A stretch of DNA of 64,000 bases from an uncultured Verrucomicrobiae bacterium (GTDB lineage: Bacteria; Verrucomicrobiota; Verrucomicrobiia; Chthoniobacterales; UBA10450): the NCBI GenBank assembly GCA_963850015.1, contig CAWKJF010000001.1, positions 456,391 to 520,390 on the forward strand, in the 5' to 3' direction. The translations under genes were made by a program, and so were the position numbers. Positions 55,350 through 60,912 of the stretch are shown here, piece after piece (positions within the stretch are counted from its first letter, which is position 1; each line of letters begins with the position of its first letter). The notes beneath the pieces are model-generated. The model made no database searches, was not told where the DNA came from, and worked only from the letters and a program-made list of their open reading frames with translations.

Positions 55350-56093
55350 TTAGGCGGCCATCCGGTCTTCGACTACGCGGCCGTCGAAGAGATGGATGGT
55401 GCGATCGGCATGTTCGGCAAAACGGGTGTCGTGCGTCACCATGCAAATCGTCGCGCCGCCGGCGTGCAACTCCTTCAACAGAGCCATGACGGCGTCGCCA
55501 TTGCGTGAGTCAAGGTTGCCCGTCGGTTCGTCCGCCAGGAGGATGGCCGGTTTGCCGGCGAGAGCGCGCGCCACGGCGACACGCTGTTGCTGGCCGCCCG
55601 AGAGCTGGCTGGGTAAATGCTTGGCGCGATGGCCCATGCCGACGCGCTCGAGCGCCTCGAGCACGAAAACTTTCCGCTCGCTCGCGCCCATGCCGCGATA
55701 GGTCAGAGGCAGCTCCACATTTTCAAACACGGTCAGATCGCCGATGAGATTGAAGCTCTGGAAAATGAACCCGATTTCCCGATTGCGAATGCGCGCCCGA
55801 TCTGGAAACGAGAGGTTCGCCACCTCGGTGCCCTTCAGCGAATAACTGCCGCCCGACGGGGTGTCGAGCAGACCGAGAATCGAGAGCAGGGTGGATTTGC
55901 CGCAACCCGATGGTCCAGCGATCGAGACGTATTCGCCCGTGCGGATATCCAGATGAATGCCGGAGAGTGCATGCGTTTCCACCTCGTCGGTCAGGAACAC
56001 TTTCGTGACGCCGTCGAGATGAATGAGTGTGTTAGCTCCGTTCGCGCCGGGAGCGCGAGCAGGTTGTTCGTTGATGGTTTCGGTTGAGGCCAT
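55350..56093 (-). CDS. ABC transporter ATP-binding protein (MacB/LolD-type), copy 1
   Basis: The ORF is intact, with Walker A (GPSGCGKSTLL), signature (LSGGQQQRVAVARA), Walker B (ILLADEPTG) and VTHD. An N-terminal extension of about 25 aa precedes the ABC domain. Confidence 0.92.
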   Translation of the reverse strand: MASTETINEQPARAPGANGANTLIHLDGVTKVFLTDEVETHALSGIHLDIRTGEYVSIAGPSGCGKSTLLSILGLLDTPSGGSYSLKGTEVANLSFPDRARIRNREIGFIFQSFNLIGDLTVFENVELPLTYRGMGASERKVFVLEALERVGMGHRAKHLPSQLSGGQQQRVAVARALAGKPAILLADEPTGNLDSRNGDAVMALLKELHAGGATICMVTHDTRFAEHADRTIHLFDGRVVEDRMAA

Positions 56094-56128: not shown

Positions 56129-57459
56129 CTAGTTAAGGCGGATGCGTTCGTGAGCGTCCATTGAACTGGTATCGGAAAGGATGACTTGGTCGCCGGGTTC
56201 GAGACCGCTCAGGATCTCGATCGTGTTGACCGAGCTGCGGCCGAGCTTCACCGGCGTCCGGACCGCTTCCGAACTGCCTGCGACCAATTTGAAAATGCCG
56301 ACGGTGTTGTTCTCCTGGCCAAAGGCCGGGCGGCCGACGTAGATCACATTATCTAAACGTTCCAGCTCGATGGTTCCGTCTACGCTTAAGATCGGGCCGG
56401 GCGCCTTTCGGCAGGTCGCCGTCGATGGCCACGTCCACCGTCACGGTCCCCTGCTCCACCGCGGGATCGACGCGAATGACATGACCGGCCACAATGCCGT
56501 TCCGCGTGTCGATCGAGGCGACCTGGGCGTTCATAATATCTTTCGCCTGCGTTTCCGCGATCTTGACCTGCGCCTTGAGCTTGGTCGGATCGGCCACGCG
56601 CGCCAGGTTATCTCCGGGTTTGACGCGTTGCCCGATTTGCACCGGCAACTGCTGCAGGACCCCGTCCATGCCGGCTTTCACATGCAGCTGCTCGACTTGA
56701 TCCACTTTTAGTTTCGCGAATTCCTTCGCTTGATCGACCGCGGCTTGCTTCGAGGCGATCTGCGGCTCAATCGAGTCGCGGGAAAATGCGAGGCGCTTGT
56801 TTTCGATCTCGTCCCGGTTGGCGAGCTCCGCCTCTTTTACCTTCGATGTCTTGTAAACCAATTCGGAAACCAGGCCGTTCTTGGCCAATTGATCGTTGGT
56901 CTGCCGCTCCATCTTGGCCTGTTCGTACTCGGAATGAACCCGCGCCGTAATCGATTCCTGGTCGAGCAACTCGCGCTGAAGCGTCGCGCGCAAGGTGGTC
57001 AGCTCCGCTTCCGCCGCCTTCGCTTTCGATTCCGCGTCGCCAGCCGTTTGTTCGAGCTCCGGGCTGGTCAACTCCAGAATAACCGTGTCGGGTCTGCACC
57101 GGTGTGCCGGGCCAAACCACGATTTTTTCGACGCGTCCTTCGGTGTTCGCAGCAATCCAGCGGATATCCACCGGAACCAGCGTCCCCAGGCCGCGGACCT
57201 GGCGCACCATCGGGCCGCGCTTGACCGTATCGATCCAAACCGTCGAGCGATCCACGCTCGGCACGGCCGGTTTGAGCCGCGAAAGCAGGAACGTCACGAG
57301 AATCAGTCCGAGGATCGAGCCGGCGATGATGATGATCCGGCGCTTGCGTTTTTGTTTGGCGACGTGTGGGCGCGGGACATCCATGGCAGAGGCAGTTGAG
57401 GTGAAGCCGCTCGGCCGCACAATAGTAGTATCCATTTTTGCTTCCGAGCTTTTTGACAT
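56129..57459 (-). pseudogene. HlyD/MacA-type periplasmic adaptor (membrane fusion protein), two frame breaks
   Basis: The N-terminal TM anchor is RRIIIIAGSILGLILVTFLL. Then come the lipoyl/barrel segments (GLGTLVPVDIRWIAANTEGRVEKIVVWPGTPVQ), a long coiled coil (ELEQTAGDAESKAKAAEAELTTLRATLQREL...) and the C-terminal beta domains (GIVAGHVIRVDPAVEQGTVTVDVAIDG...VIYVGRPAFGQENNTVGIFKL). The pieces are ORFs 56767..57459, 56349..57155 and 56129..56347. The start may instead be the ATG at 57435. Confidence 0.85.
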
Positions 57460-57573
57460 TGGGGTGAGATGGTTAGAGCGACTCCGAACGATCGGACCAG
57501 ATGGAGGATCGCGCCGACACTGGCCATGATCGGCACAGCGGCTGTCATCACGATCACGGTGAACAAGGCGACT

Positions 57574-57789
57574 TCACGCGCAAAAGTGGTGAGGCGCTTC
57601 GTACTTGAAGTAATCCTGGCTGATCGAACGAAATGAAGGCTGGCGGGAACCGAAGCAGCGACCGCCGCCATTCGCGAGCGACGAAGCCTGAAAGCTGTAA
57701 TCGGTCTTGGGAAGGGCGGAGCCTTCGCGAAAGTCGCGATCGCAAAGATCGCGGCGGCTCTTTTCGTTGAACTGGATGGTTGGTTTCAT
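57574..57789 (-). CDS. Small ORF (71 aa as sequenced) directly behind the sigma-54 promoter; possibly the N-terminal part of a ~100-aa tail-anchored membrane protein
   Basis: The ATG at 57789 is preceded by AGGAAAG with an 8-nt spacer. The product is MKPTIQFNEKSRRDLCDRDFREGSALPKTDYSFQASSLANGGGRCFGSRQPSFRSISQDYFKYEAPHHFCA. Just after the TTTT run at the stop, another frame encodes a GC3-rich hydrophobic helix (EVALFTVIVMTAAVPIMASVGAILHLV). I do not recognise a family. Confidence 0.4.
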   Translation of the reverse strand: MKPTIQFNEKSRRDLCDRDFREGSALPKTDYSFQASSLANGGGRCFGSRQPSFRSISQDYFKYEAPHHFCA

Positions 57790-57863
57790 ATTCTTATCTT
57801 TCCTGTGAGATGCACTTCGCAGTCTCAATCGGATTCAAAATCTTTGTTGGCGGGCGAAGCTAT

Positions 57864-57879
57864 TGCAATGGCCGTGCCA
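57864..57879 (-). promoter_or_regulatory. Sigma-54 (RpoN) -24/-12 promoter
   Basis: The minus strand reads TGGCAC-GGCCA-TTGCA, a full match to the consensus TGGCAC-N5-TTGC(A/T). It lies 75 nt upstream of the ATG at 57789 and immediately downstream of a sigma-54-dependent activator and kinase pair. Confidence 0.8.
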
Positions 57880-57910
57880 CGGGTCTAAACAAAGTTATAA
57901 AACTCTGTTA

Positions 57911-57926
57911 ATGTAATGCCTTACAT
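57911..57926. promoter_or_regulatory. Candidate enhancer-binding-protein site (perfect palindrome)
   Basis: ATGTAA-TGCC-TTACAT is a perfect 6-4-6 inverted repeat, 32 nt upstream of the -24 element. The assignment rests on position only. Confidence 0.3.
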
Positions 57927-58020
57927 CGTTGCCTCAAAATCCGATGCGCTGGAAAAGCTTCGGTAGTGGGATTCCACTCGTCCCGATTGTGGGACGACCG
58001 CTGCGCCGAAATTCCAAGTC

Positions 58021-58120
58021 CCAAATCCCAGGCTCCAAAAGAAGCGCCAAGCGTCAAAACTCAACCAAGCATTATCGCAAACCGGTGATATTCGGGGCCT
58101 GGGAGTTCCCTGGGATTTGG
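58021..58120. repeat. 12-bp perfect inverted repeat pair flanking 76 nt, just downstream of the kinase stop
   Basis: CCAAATCCCAGG (58021-58032) pairs with CCTGGGATTTGG (58109-58120). The flanks carry further TCCCAAA/TTTGGGA-type motifs. Confidence 0.7.
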
Positions 58121-58140
58121 CAACTTCGGGCTTTGGGATT

Positions 58141-59478
58141 CTACTTCGGCAGCCGCAAGAGCGCTTCGCAGCCCGGCCCGCTCGCGATTCGCCAGAGTCA
58201 ACGATCCGCCATGCGCTTCCGCGATCTGCCGGCTGAGCGCCAGGCCAATCCCCGACCCACCCGGCTTGGTCGTGAAAAACGGCACGAACAAATTCGTCGG
58301 GTTCATGATGCCGGGTCCGGTGTCGCGCACAAACACCTCGACGCACTCGGCCAAATCGCGCCAGCCCGTCGTCACAGTTCCCGCCGTTTCGAGGGAGGCT
58401 TCCGCCGCGTTGTGCAGAATGTTGATGAGCAATTGTTCCAGTTGCGCGGCGTCCGCCTGAGTGATCATTTCCGGTCCCGGAACGACGCGCACTGGAATCC
58501 GCGTCTCCAAACTCGCCACCCGCCTAACGAGTTCACCGAGATCGACCGCTTCCTTTTGCGGAGGAGGCAGGCGCGCCAGCCGTGCGTAGGCCTGCATGAA
58601 ACGGCTGAGCGATTCCGCGCGCGTCGCGATGATGTTCAATCCGCTGCGGGCATCATCGCGCCAATCCGCCGGCGGCGGATCGCGCCGGATCAATGTTTCC
58701 AAACTGCCGGCAATCGATTTGATCGGCGCGAGCGAGTTATTCATCTCATGGCCGATCACACGCACGAGGCGCTGCCAGGCGTTGCGCTCTTCCTCGCGGA
58801 GCGTGCGGCTCAGGTCCGTCAGCACCAGCAACTCGTGCGGCAGACCGCGTTCGCGGAAATGAACTTCGGCGCACGCCCCATCTTCCGGAGCCGCCCGGGA
58901 ACGTGAGCGTCAGCGGCGCGTCCTCGTTCGCGTCCAGGCAGACGTCCAGCCCAATATCTCGCGCGCGTCGGCCGAGCAGTTTGTCCATCGGTTGCCCGAG
59001 CAGGTCTTCGCCCGCGCGGTTGACCAGGCGCAAGCGGCGGTCCGGATCGAAGGTGAAAACCGCCACATCGATTTCCGCCATGATCGTCCGGAGGAGCGCC
59101 GTGGCCTCGAACGCGCCGAGCCGTTGCAAACCGGAGCGTTTCGCCCAGCGCATTGATTTCCAGCATCGCTTCGCCGAGGGCGTCGTCCGGCACGGGCGCC
59201 GCGGGCGCGAATCGAATAATCGCCTTCGCGCAACGCGGCGAGCAGGTTCGTCATCGTTTGCAGCGGGCGGATAACGTGTTCGCGCGCGCTCAGGATGAAG
59301 CCGAGCGCAGCAGCCGGCAATCACAAGCGTCAAAGTCCACTGAACTTTTGCGGTGTGATCGCCAAACCAAAGCAGGGCCAGCGCGATCGACGAACGCCGG
59401 CGCCGCGGCGCAAAGCGTCAGCCAGGTCAGACGGCCTTCGTGCGTAATCCGCTGCCGCAGCTTCTTGATCGCCTTCAT
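58141..59478 (-). pseudogene. HAMP/PAS sensor histidine kinase (NtrB/AtoS-like), at least four frame breaks
   Basis: The N-terminal TM region and HAMP (LLAALREGDYSIRARGA...LGEAMLEINALGETLR), a PAS domain (IMAEIDVAVFTFDPDRRLRLVNRAGEDLLGQ), HisKA (VIGHEMNNSLAPIKS) and HATPase (ILHNAAEA...VRDTGPGI...FVPFFTTKPGGSGIGLALSRQIAEAHGG) are present. The true tail SGPGCEALLRLPK ends at 58141-58143, after a break near 58190. Confidence 0.85.
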
Positions 59479-59565
59479 GGTGGACCGAGCGCTGCGCTCG
59501 ATCTAGTGGCGCGGCGTATCGCCGGCATCATCACCAGACCGCGGCCGGCGCGGCCGCCTCTACAC

Positions 59566-60912
59566 CTATAGCCCATACTGCTGGAGCCGGCGATAAAACG
59601 CGCTCCGGCTCAGCCCCAATGCTTCCGCCGCTTTGCGCGCGTTTCCATCGAAGCGCGACAGCGCCTTCTTGATCAGGAAAGATTCCACTTCCTCCAGGCT
59701 CATGTCTTCCAGCCGCGGCGAATCCTGTGTTCCACTCGTTAGGCCAAGATCGTTCGCCTTGACCTGCTGGCCTTGCGTCATCAGGACCGCCCGCTCCACC
59801 ACGTGATCCAGCTCGCGAACATTCCCGGGATACGGTGCTGCATCAGAATGTCGCGCGCCGCTTCCTCGAATCCGGTCAATGTCTTGCGATATCGTTTCGC
59901 ATGCTGGCGAAGAAAACTATTCGCCAGGAGCATGATGTCCTCGCGCCGTTCGCGCAGAGGCGGCAACGCGATCTCGATCGTGTTCAGCCGGAAAAGAAGG
60001 TCCTGCCGGAAACGGCCCGCGGCCACTTCCTCATGCGGGTTGGCGTTCGTCGCCGAAACGATCCGCACATTCGCGTGCAACGTTTTCGAAGAACCCACGC
60101 GTTCGAACTCGCCCGTCTCGATCATCCGCAGCAATTTCGCCTGCTGATTCATCGGCACGTTCGCGATCTCATCCATGAAGAGCGTGCTCTCGTCCGCCAG
60201 CTCGAACCGTCCCGCCCGGTCCGTCTTCGCATCCGTAAACGCGCCCTTCACATGGCCAAACAACTCACTCTCGAAAATTCCCTCCGAGAGCCCGCCCATG
60301 TTCACCGTGATCATGCTGTGCGACGCCCGCGGTGAGAGCGCGTGCAGAGCCTGCGCCACCAACCCTTTCCCGGTGCCGTTTTCGCCGGTGATCAGAACGT
60401 TCGCGTCCGACGGCGCGACGCGCGAGATCAACTCGAGCACCGGCCGCATCCGCGGCGATTCCGCGATGAGATTCGGCGCGTTGCCGCGCAATAATTGATT
60501 CGCCGCTTCCAGCCGGCGGCCTTTCCGCAACGCGCCCGCCAGCTCGATCTGCGTGCGCACAATCGCGAGAAGCCGGTCATTGTCCCACGGCTTCGGAATA
60601 AAATCGCGCGCGCCCGCGCTTCATCGCTTCCACCGCCAGATCAATCGTCGCCCACGCCGTCATGACCACGATCGGCAGCGTGTTGTCGAGCGCCTGAATC
60701 CGCGGAATCACCTCGAGCCCTTCCTGCCCCGACGTCGTGTCGCGCGTGTAATTCAGATCCATGATCAGCAGCGCGTAATCCTTTTTCTCGAGCGCCTGAA
60801 AAGCTCCCGCGAGCGACGTCACCGCATCCGTCTGATGCCCTTCCCCCTTGAGCAAAATGCGCAGCGCCTCCAGCACATCGTTCTGGTCGTCCGCGATCAG
60901 GATCCTGCTCAT
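59566..60912 (-). pseudogene. Sigma-54-dependent response regulator (NtrC family: REC + AAA+ + Fis-type HTH), two frame breaks
   Basis: The REC domain is ORF 60577..60912 (ILIADDQNDVLEAL...LLIMDLNY...VVMTAW). The AAA+ domain is ORF 59781..60560 (VLITGENGTGKGLVA, ESELFGHVKGAFTDA containing the GAFTGA-type loop, LFMDEI, RVGSSK). The HTH is ORF 59566..59802 (NARKAAEALGLSRSAFYRRLQQYGL). The breaks are near 60590 and 59800. Confidence 0.9.

What the first reader, a model, noticed from the sequence alone, without database searches (positions are those of the whole stretch)
57460..57789. Small ORF at the head of the sigma-54 operon: cryptic tail-anchored membrane protein, or exported Gly-Gly peptide?
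The first ORF after the promoter has an RBS (AGGAAAG, 8-nt spacer) and encodes 71 aa with no recognisable family. It contains ...SSLANGGG followed by a 28-aa Cys-flanked tail (RCFGSRQPSFRSISQDYFKYEAPHHFCA). Its TGA lies in CAC CAC TTT TGC GCG TGA. If one T of the TTTT run were removed, the frame would continue into EVALFTVIVMTAAVPIMASVGAILHLV. That stretch is a clean hydrophobic helix whose codons are strongly G/C-ended, like real genes here, whereas the in-frame continuation is T-ended. Because homopolymer frame errors are rampant in this sequence, the real product may be a ~100-aa protein with a soluble N-terminal domain and a C-terminal TM anchor, encoded immediately upstream of the adaptor. 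Either reading gives an undescribed accessory component, or a substrate, of a MacB-type system.
Basis: partly seen in the sequence, partly recalled or inferred. Interest (0 to 1): 0.6.

Follow-up and report, generated by a model that had tools for sequence, protein, structure and literature searches.

The report
Frameshift-broken tail-anchored pump-operon protein
The 71-codon ORF is the front part of a real, conserved 104-residue tail-anchored membrane protein gene, split here by two single-base assembly errors, which always leads a sigma-54-controlled MacB-type efflux operon in one family of uncultured soil Verrucomicrobia and whose function is untested.

Summary
On the minus strand, 57789..57574 encodes 71 aa behind AGGAAAG and a consensus sigma-54 promoter, and the TGA follows a T4 run.

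Compared with 21 intact orthologues, the window carries two 1-nt insertions, at 57585-57582 and at 57482-57480. Read through, the product is 104 aa and ends 13 nt before the adaptor ATG.

- **Real gene:** dN/dS is about 0.23 in both halves and all length differences are multiples of three. Among 245 database relatives, the 71-aa form exists only in this assembly.
- **Sequencing errors:** neighbouring genes switch frame at 81-95% identity, so the breaks look technical rather than decay.
- **Architecture:** about 50 disordered cytosolic residues, then one ~50-residue helix ending in a C-terminal TM segment with one conserved face.
- **Distribution:** no Pfam or NCBIfam family. Found in 39/39 sampled genomes of one Chthoniobacterales family, with no credible match in 15 sister families, and 1-6 paralogues per genome.
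- **Position:** the orthologue sits directly upstream of the adaptor in 11/11 genomes checked.

The Gly-Gly exported-peptide reading is not supported. The most likely role, inferred only, is an accessory or modulatory subunit of the pump or its kinase. The scan had not noted this family elsewhere. Side finding: a covarying about 175-nt leader RNA precedes one paralogue subgroup, absent from this genus.

The parts
57979..57996 (-). Palindrome CGTCCC-N6-GGGACG, about 110 nt upstream of the -24 box. It is the likely upstream activator site of the adjacent NtrC-type regulator.
   Evidence: Read. The same CGTCCC-N6-GGGAC element lies upstream of the orthologous promoters in another genus. Binding is inferred, not tested.
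57864..57879 (-). Sigma-54 promoter TGGCACGGCCATTGCA (-24 GG at 57878-57877, -12 GC at 57866-57865).
   Evidence: The strict motif TGGCA[CT]-N5-T[TG]GC[AT] is present at the same place in 22 of 23 oriented loci, window copy L001 included (21 of 22 relatives; absent only in L016). An enhancer-binding regulator gene lies upstream.
57798..57804 (-). Ribosome-binding site AGGAAAG, 8 nt before the ATG.
   Evidence: The region is conserved at DNA level in the closest relatives (79-82% identity over the whole 601-nt query).
57574..57789 (-). The 71-aa ORF as it stands (P0001). Codons 1-69 are the true N-terminal part. Codons 70-71 and the TGA are frameshift artefacts.
   Evidence: 87% identity to intact 104-aa proteins.
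57582..57585 (-). T4 run: site of the first extra base relative to relatives.
   Evidence: DNA alignment A1 shows one extra base within CACCACTTTTGCG. Dropping one T restores ...F-A-R-E-V-A-L-F, matching relatives' F-(A/V)-G-E-(A/V)-A-L-F.
57483..57581 (-). 33 codons in the +1 frame that encode the end of the juxtamembrane helix and the TM helix (AREVALFT...HLVRSFG).
   Evidence: one mismatch to the closest intact homologues over the EVALF...RSFG stretch. GC3 is 0.76. Broad-family HMM hit E=1.4e-10 in this frame.
57480..57482 (-). Site of the second extra base: GTC here, where four relatives have two bases (GC or AT) in GGAxx-xCTCTAA.
   Evidence: alignment A1, column 321. It is not a homopolymer.
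57473..57475 (-). TAA stop of the intact gene in the register of the relatives (...F-G-A-L-stop), 13 nt before the adaptor ATG.
   Evidence: The stop-to-start spacer is 16-18 nt in intact loci.
56132..57459 (-). Membrane-fusion (HlyD/MacA-type) adaptor gene, read in three frames here (two frame switches).
   Evidence: HlyD_3, HlyD_D23. (tblastn of an intact 442-aa homologue gives three pieces at 81-92% identity).
55350..56093 (-). ABC ATPase (stand-alone NBD, 247 aa, intact).
   Evidence: 94% identity, one frame.
58144..59387 (-). Histidine kinase gene (frame-broken here). The intact homologue has two TM helices joined by an 8-residue loop.
59569..60912 (-). NtrC-type sigma-54 activator (response regulator), two frame switches here.

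Best explanation
The ORF is the front two-thirds of a 104-codon gene that this long-read assembly breaks with two single-base insertions (T run 57585-57582; GTC 57482-57480).

The intact gene encodes a tail-anchored, single-pass inner-membrane protein. It has about 50 disordered cytosolic residues carrying two short conserved motifs (MKPTxQ at the N-terminus; P-x-T-D-Y-x-[YF]-Q). One continuous ~50-residue helix follows. Its cytosolic juxtamembrane half (S-F-R-x-I-S-x-D-Y-F-x-x-E-A) and its TM half share one conserved face, and only about 6 residues lie outside the membrane at the C-terminus.

It is the first cistron of an operon transcribed from a sigma-54 promoter. The adjacent NtrC-type regulator and a kinase without a periplasmic domain control that promoter. 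The adaptor, the ABC ATPase and an array of duplicated MacB/FtsX-type (ADOP-like) permeases follow.

Proposed mechanism (inferred): the protein is made together with the pump. It inserts N-in/C-out and packs its conserved helix face against a membrane-proximal helix of a partner from the same transcript. The adaptor is the most likely partner: it has a single N-terminal TM plus a conserved 40-residue cytosolic tail, and its gene is always 13-35 nt downstream. A permease is the alternative partner. The effect would be to modulate assembly or activity of the pump, as YknW, VraH and AcrZ do for their pumps.

My confidence by step: gene reconstruction about 0.95; tail-anchored topology about 0.8; pump-accessory role about 0.4.
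For: - **Intact gene in relatives:** 21/22 same-genus loci have one ORF of 89-104 aa covering both window frames. The closest database proteins (87% identity) are 104 aa. The 71-aa form occurs only in this assembly among 245 hits.
- **Two insertions:** located by DNA alignment.
- **Technical nature:** the regulator, kinase and adaptor each switch frame two or more times while keeping 81-95% identity to intact homologues. The genome is 2 contigs but only 82.5% complete. Another few-contig assembly (G007) is broken in the same gene at a different place.
- **Coding selection:** dN/dS is 0.22-0.25 in both halves, third positions vary most, and all indels are multiples of three.
- **Architecture:** AlphaFold gives residues 1-50 at pLDDT below 50 and one helix at 53-103. 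There is a single hydrophobic segment near the C-terminus, with 6 K/R against 2 D/E in the 25 residues before it.
- **Conserved face:** conservation along the helix peaks at 100-105 degrees per residue, and 14/2000 shuffles reach that value.
- **Synteny:** regulator-kinase-small-adaptor-ATPase-permeases in metagenome contigs. The small gene abuts the adaptor gene in 11/11 genomes of 10 genera (coordinates).
- **Sister families:** the same promoter-to-adaptor slot holds an unrelated 80-138-aa single-pass protein. In 3 loci (L092, L095, L098) it does so with no kinase or regulator within 3.5 kb.
- **Precedents:** small or accessory membrane partners of MacB-family and RND pumps are reviewed in PMC5985334.
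Against: - No experiment and no co-fold; the partner is unknown.
- The family is not pump-specific. It has 1-6 paralogues per genome. Many sit next to unrelated genes: peptidase M2, phosphoesterase/PBP, MutS, and a Toastrack lipoprotein.
- Only 6 of 29 'type B' paralogues have a pump or regulator gene within 1.5 kb.
- The slot proteins of sister families are not detectably homologous (hhalign probability 1.9%), so positional conservation may reflect something other than a shared function.
Confidence: 0.55

Rival explanations
1. Feedback modulator of the two-component system. The small membrane protein, induced by the regulator, binds the TM region of the kinase and tunes its activity. Known parallels are MgrB on PhoQ, LiaF on LiaS, and the transporter on BceS.
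For: The kinase has two TM helices joined by only about 8 residues. That is an intramembrane-sensing architecture, which in known systems depends on accessory membrane proteins. The small gene is the first product of the regulated promoter. In one genus, further paralogues sit directly upstream of the regulator gene.
Against: In 3 of 10 sister-family loci (L092, L095, L098) the (non-homologous) slot protein stays with the adaptor with no kinase or regulator within 3.5 kb. The gene is tightly spaced with the adaptor gene, not with the kinase gene, from which about 300 nt and the promoter separate it.
Confidence: 0.25
2. The two frameshifts are real, so the gene is a pseudogene, or a truncated 71-aa soluble protein, in this particular organism.
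For: Reads could not be checked. The second insertion is not in a homopolymer.
Against: Both halves keep near-identity to intact homologues. Essential-looking neighbours show the same pattern of frame switches without sequence decay. Genome completeness is low for a 2-contig assembly. No other member of 245 relatives is truncated.
Confidence: 0.07
3. Exported or processed peptide: a Gly-Gly leader is cleaved, and the C-terminal part is a substrate of the ABC system.
For: G-G-R is nearly invariant among orthologues. MacB-type pumps can export small proteins (PMC5985334).
Against: There is no C39 peptidase domain in the ATPase or permeases and no double-glycine leader consensus. The GG columns carry only 1.2-1.9 bits across 150 cluster representatives and are replaced in paralogues. 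The putative 'mature' part is a juxtamembrane helix plus a TM anchor with a conserved face. Paralogues lie far from any transporter.
Confidence: 0.03
4. General stress-induced tail-anchored membrane protein family that is not specific to the pump. Its disordered N-terminus would recruit a common cytosolic partner to the membrane. The copy in this operon would be one of several differently regulated isoforms.
For: There are multiple paralogues per genome in varied contexts. The N-terminal motifs are shared by all paralogues. One paralogue subgroup has its own structured leader RNA. The size and topology resemble the E. coli ElaB/YqjD/YgaM tail-anchored proteins (my own knowledge).
Against: The adjacency of the orthologue to the adaptor gene is strict and universal across 10 genera. 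There is no sequence relation to DUF883/ElaB.
Confidence: 0.1

Closest known systems
YknW of the B. subtilis YknWXYZ pump (with AS-48E)
   Same: A membrane protein co-transcribed with an adaptor, an ATPase and a MacB-type permease. It is reported to influence the adaptor's oligomeric or conformational state (PMC5985334).
   Different: YknW is a four-TM protein. Here there is one C-terminal TM, a disordered N-terminus and no sequence similarity (no Pfam hit). The host is a diderm, and control is by sigma-54.
VraH of S. aureus VraDEH
   Same: A small membrane protein that modulates a MacB-superfamily (BceAB-type) transporter, in a system tied to an intramembrane-sensing kinase (PMC5985334).
   Different: VraH has two TM helices with both ends cytoplasmic. 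It is not homologous, and that system has no adaptor.
AcrZ of E. coli AcrAB-TolC
   Same: A small single-pass protein, co-regulated with an efflux pump, that binds the transporter within the membrane (cited in PMC5985334).
   Different: AcrZ is 49 aa, partners with an RND pump and is encoded away from acrAB. There is no homology.
MgrB / LiaF type kinase modulators
   Same: Small membrane proteins that are induced by a two-component system and feed back on a kinase (my own knowledge).
   Different: MgrB acts through a periplasmic part. LiaF carries a Toastrack domain. Here almost nothing is exposed outside the membrane. There is no homology.
ElaB/YqjD/YgaM (DUF883) tail-anchored proteins of E. 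coli
   Same: About 100 aa, a C-terminal TM anchor, a cytosolic N-terminal part, and several paralogues per genome (my own knowledge).
   Different: There is no Pfam DUF883 match. Those proteins are RpoS-regulated, helical in the N-part and not in pump operons.

Membership tests
Tail-anchored inner-membrane protein (architectural class) | A single TM helix that ends within about 10 residues of the C-terminus. | tested here: met
   There is one hydrophobic segment, at 66-84 of 93 aa, with 6 residues after the helix. AlphaFold gives a helix at 53-103 of 104 with pLDDT about 90 in the TM part. This is a prediction only.
Tail-anchored inner-membrane protein (architectural class) | No N-terminal signal or hydrophobic segment, with the N-terminal part cytosolic. 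| tested here: met
   The N-terminal 50 residues are polar and predicted disordered. The 25 residues before the TM hold 6 K/R against 2 D/E, which fits the positive-inside rule. This is a prediction only.
ElaB/YqjD (DUF883) family | Sequence match to the family profile. | tested here: not met
   None of the 21 orthologues matches any Pfam family at E<=0.01. The four hits listed (E 0.07-0.2, one member each) do not include DUF883.
Double-glycine leader peptide / peptidase-ABC exporter substrate | An adjacent ABC exporter with an N-terminal C39 peptidase domain. | tested here: not met
   The ATPase is a stand-alone 247-aa NBD. The permeases contain only MacB_PCD and FtsX domains.
Double-glycine leader peptide / peptidase-ABC exporter substrate | A conserved leader that ends in GG, followed by a variable mature peptide. 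| tested here: not met
   GG is nearly invariant in orthologues. It carries only 1.2-1.9 bits across 150 representatives and is replaced in paralogues. Conservation is highest after the GG, not before it.
Pump-accessory small membrane protein (AcrZ / VraH / YknW kind) | Co-encoded or co-regulated with the pump. | tested here: met
   It is the first cistron behind the sigma-54 promoter. It lies directly upstream of the adaptor gene in 11/11 genomes of 10 genera and in two metagenome contigs.
Pump-accessory small membrane protein (AcrZ / VraH / YknW kind) | Physical association with the transporter or adaptor, and an effect on pump activity. | not testable with these tools
   This needs a co-fold of two chains, a two-hybrid assay or a pull-down.
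Pump-accessory small membrane protein (AcrZ / VraH / YknW kind) | Homology to a described accessory protein. | tested here: not met
   There is no Pfam or NCBIfam match above cut-off. The weak SaoP and DinQ-like hits match only some members (9 and 4 of 21), the one shown in detail scores 13.7 bits against a 35-bit cut-off, and that match lies in the TM segment.
Sigma-54-dependent operon | A -24 GG / -12 GC promoter with correct spacing, conserved in relatives. | tested here: met
   TGGCACGGCCATTGCA lies at 57879-57864. The strict motif is present in 22/23 oriented loci, window copy included.
Sigma-54-dependent operon | A cognate enhancer-binding activator and an upstream activator site. | tested here: inconclusive
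   An activator gene with a Sigma54_activat domain lies upstream. A conserved CGTCCC-N6-GGGAC palindrome sits about 110 nt upstream. Binding was not tested.

The most novel reading that the evidence does not exclude
The family is a new class of tail-anchored adaptor proteins that physically couples ADOP/MacB-type pumps to a kinase lacking a sensor domain. Pump state would then be reported to a sigma-54 circuit, as a Gram-negative, sigma-54 analogue of Bce-type flux sensing. A sister paralogue would be placed under a previously undescribed riboswitch-like leader RNA.
Probability: 0.1. Interest if true: 0.65.

Novelty: new variant of a known kind. Interest (0 to 1): 0.38.

Why it matters
The MAG record titles place these genomes in Chthoniobacterales / Spartobacteria from soil and peat. 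Nothing is known experimentally about their large arrays of MacB/ADOP-type permeases.

A universally conserved, co-transcribed small membrane protein is a concrete handle on how such pumps are assembled or sensed. The 2018 MacB review explicitly left open whether small membrane proteins modulate MacB-type pumps (PMC5985334).

There is also a practical point. In error-rich long-read assemblies, small genes like this one are truncated or lost, and comparison with relatives recovers them.

Tried and rejected
- **Pfam and NCBIfam on 21 orthologues:** nothing above cut-off. The weak SaoP hits (9/21, best E 4.8e-4) and DinQ-like hits were treated as hydrophobic-helix noise.
- **Profile-profile comparison with the sister-family slot proteins:** probability 1.9%, so no homology is claimed.
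- **Exhaustive profile search of 1.84 billion representatives:** 434 clusters at E<=0.001. All of the best 150 are 56-187 aa and match to their C-terminus. No fusion to a known domain turned up that could give a functional hint.
- **Toastrack link:** one paralogue abuts (stop-to-start) a DUF4097 protein, but that protein has a lipoprotein signal and so is periplasmic. I drew no inference about the cytosolic N-part.
- **Mirror-tree or co-variation with partners:** not attempted, because all candidates share one operon and one phylogeny.
- **Window scan with a broad family HMM:** no further copy in the window.
- **Rfam on the paralogue leader:** no family.

Full report
**Observation.** The feature lies on the minus strand. 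The ATG is at 57789 and AGGAAAG sits 8 nt upstream. The ORF gives a 71-aa product and stops at TGA 57576-57574, directly after a T4 run (57585-57582). The +1 frame continues into a clean hydrophobic helix. A consensus sigma-54 box lies at 57879-57864. By itself such an ORF is not remarkable, because about 100 ORFs of 30 aa or more overlap 9 kb here.

**Comparison with relatives.** A 601-nt query covering promoter, ORF and adaptor start matched 22 of 24 genomes of the same genus at 66-82% identity. After orienting these loci, 21 of 22 showed a single uninterrupted ORF of 89-104 aa. That ORF contains the window's first frame followed by its +1 frame and stops a few bases before the adaptor ATG. 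The one exception, G007, is another few-contig assembly and is frameshifted at a different position.

**Where the window is broken.** DNA alignment with the four closest relatives shows two extra bases in the window. One lies in CACCACTTTTGCG. The other lies in GGAGTCGCTCTAA, where three of the four relatives read GGAGC-(G/C)CTCTAA and the fourth GGAAT-GCTCTAA. Discounting both gives 69 + 33 + 2 = 104 codons ending F-G-A-L-stop, with TAA at 57475-57473, 13 nt before the adaptor ATG at 57459.

**Errors, not decay.**
- Intact homologues of the regulator, kinase and adaptor map onto the window in two to three frames each, at 81-95% amino-acid identity. The ATPase is intact.
- The genome is 4.1 Mb in 2 contigs yet only 82.5% complete by marker genes.
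- A search with the 71-aa product found 245 relatives. All but the window's own entry, among the 120 listed, are 98-117 aa, and the best is 87% identical and 104 aa.
- The window's +1 frame differs from the closest intact proteins by one residue over the EVALF...RSFG stretch.

**A real gene.** Across 21 orthologues, dN/dS is 0.24 in the N-part and 0.22 in the C-part. Third codon positions vary about twice as much as first and second positions. All length differences are multiples of three.

**What the protein looks like.**
- AlphaFold on an orthologue alignment gives residues 1-50 at pLDDT below 50 and a single helix at 53-103, with pLDDT about 90 in its last 30 residues.
- Hydropathy finds one TM segment close to the C-terminus. 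The 25 residues before it hold 6 K/R against 2 D/E, and about 6 residues follow it. The predicted topology is therefore N-in, tail-anchored.
- Across 150 cluster representatives, the most conserved columns are M-K-P at the N-terminus and P-x-T-D-Y-x-[YF]-Q around residue 30. A stripe then runs through the juxtamembrane helix into the TM: F52, S56, Y59, F60, E63, F68, E71, F75, I78, P85, A92, L96.
- The conservation profile of the helix peaks at 100-105 degrees per residue, and 14 of 2000 shuffles reach that value. One conserved face over about 50 residues argues for packing against a partner helix.

**Family and distribution.**
- No Pfam or NCBIfam model matches above cut-off.
- The word-indexed search found 905 proteins. 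All named ones are 'hypothetical protein' from Chthoniobacterales / Verrucomicrobiota MAGs.
- The exhaustive profile search found 434 clusters at 50% identity. All of the best 150 are small and match to their C-terminus, with no fusions.
- Record titles of related loci are all uncultured Chthoniobacterales / Spartobacteria MAGs from soil and peat, except one titled Actinomycetota.
- In 300 genomes of the order, the profile hit 39 of 39 genomes of the window's family (17 genera). In the 15 other families it gave only marginal hits (E 6.5e-4 to 8.5e-3), most of them inside long ORFs. There are 1-6 matches per genome.

**Context.** Metagenome contigs show the order regulator (Response_reg + Sigma54_activat), kinase, the 93-aa gene, a 442-aa adaptor, a 247-aa ATPase, and four or more permeases of about 800 aa with duplicated MacB_PCD/FtsX. 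Coordinates from two independent genome searches place the best small-protein hit directly upstream of the adaptor gene in 11 of 11 genomes from 10 genera. The strict sigma-54 motif is present in 22 of 23 oriented loci, window copy included. A CGTCCC-N6-GGGAC palindrome lies about 110 nt upstream in the window and in another genus. The kinase has two TM helices joined by 8 residues and therefore no periplasmic sensor domain.

**Sister families.** Orthologous adaptors (51-58% identity) exist in families f6, f7 and one genome of f5. In nine of the ten such loci inspected (not L094), the slot between kinase or promoter and adaptor again holds a single-pass protein of 80-138 aa. There the TM is central and a periplasmic tail follows. 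In three loci (L092, L095, L098) no kinase or regulator lies within 3.5 kb. Profile-profile comparison gives no evidence of homology with the window's family. The position is conserved; the sequence is not.

**Paralogues.** Some lie just upstream of the regulator gene in one genus, sometimes in tandem. One type abuts (stop-to-start) a Toastrack (DUF4097) lipoprotein and is followed by DUF520. Others sit beside a peptidase M2, a phosphoesterase/PBP pair or MutS. The family as such is therefore not pump-specific; only the orthologue in this operon is.

**Mechanism.**
- Shown: the gene, its selection, its predicted architecture, its promoter and its strict adjacency to the adaptor gene.
- Inferred: it is co-made with the pump and docks by its conserved helix face onto a membrane-proximal helix of the adaptor or a permease, modulating assembly or activity. 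I put this at about 0.4. Known precedents are YknW, VraH and AcrZ (PMC5985334).
- Main rival (about 0.25): feedback on the sensor-less kinase.
- The Gly-Gly peptide reading fails. There is no C39 domain. GG is weakly conserved across the family. The 'mature' part is the membrane anchor.

**Side finding.** One paralogue subgroup ('type B', with W-P in the TM and often ending R-L-V-R-N-Y) is always preceded by a conserved leader of about 175 nt. The leader sits behind a TGGACA-N17-TAAATA promoter-like element. All 29 DNA matches are followed by such a gene.
- The proposed structure has 26 pairs, 95% of cells paired against 32-44% when partners are slid.
- 12 pairs show compensatory changes against 3-7 in the slid controls, and no shuffle of 500 reached the observed values.
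- A covariance model finds it in 63 of 140 genomes of the family (23 of 36 genera), usually once per genome. It finds none in 11 genomes of the window's genus, nor in G000 itself.
- Rfam has no match even at E<=1.
- It is not in the window.

**Verdict.** The gene is real and uncharacterised, from a lineage-restricted small membrane protein family, and sits in a fixed position at the head of a sigma-54 MacB-type operon. Its function is unproven. Interest is moderate.

Noticed in passing
L099:1521-1694 (-), L100:1532-1704 (+) and 24 further loci (alignment A5); not in the window: A conserved leader of about 175 nt lies directly upstream of a 'type B' paralogue subgroup of the small protein. The proposed structure has 26 pairs, 12 of them with compensatory changes, and 95% of cells paired against 32-44% in slid controls. 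The invariant core is CGCCAAGUUGGAGCCCGC-loop-GCGGCACCCCAGUGG. Rfam has no family for it. The covariance model R1 finds it in 63/140 genomes of the family and in none of 11 genomes of the window's genus, nor in G000. It is a candidate new cis-regulatory RNA.
   Followed up: partly
window 57979-57996 (-): A CGTCCC-N6-GGGACG palindrome, followed by a GTGGAATCCCAC near-palindrome, lies about 110 nt upstream of the sigma-54 box. The same CGTCCC-N6-GGGAC element occurs at the orthologous promoters of another genus. It is the likely binding site of the adjacent NtrC-type activator.
   Followed up: partly
L089-L098 (sister families of the order): The slot between the sigma-54 promoter or kinase gene and the orthologous adaptor gene holds a different single-pass protein of 80-138 aa, with a central TM and a periplasmic tail. 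Several end in L-P-S-[LF]-P-[SA]-I. No homology to the window's family is detectable (hhalign probability 1.9%).
   Followed up: partly
L036:8331-9665 (intact homologue of the window's kinase at about 58144-59480): The histidine kinase has two TM helices joined by an 8-residue loop and no periplasmic domain. This is an intramembrane-sensing architecture, next to a MacB-superfamily transporter.
   Followed up: partly
L038:5694-6880 (-), L043:4865-6072 (-): One paralogue type abuts (stop-to-start) the gene for a Toastrack (DUF4097) protein that carries a lipoprotein signal. A DUF520 gene follows, and in L043 a comM-like gene lies next to it.
   Followed up: partly
window 56132-60912: The regulator, kinase and adaptor genes each change frame two or more times while staying 81-95% identical to intact homologues, and the ATPase is intact. 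This is consistent with frequent single-base indel errors in this 2-contig, 82.5%-complete assembly.
   Followed up: partly
L009 / L077 (G007, record CAWKCU010000003.1): A second few-contig MAG of the same genus has the same small gene frameshifted, but at a different position (after ...ASPAANG). This supports a technical origin for such breaks.
   Followed up: no
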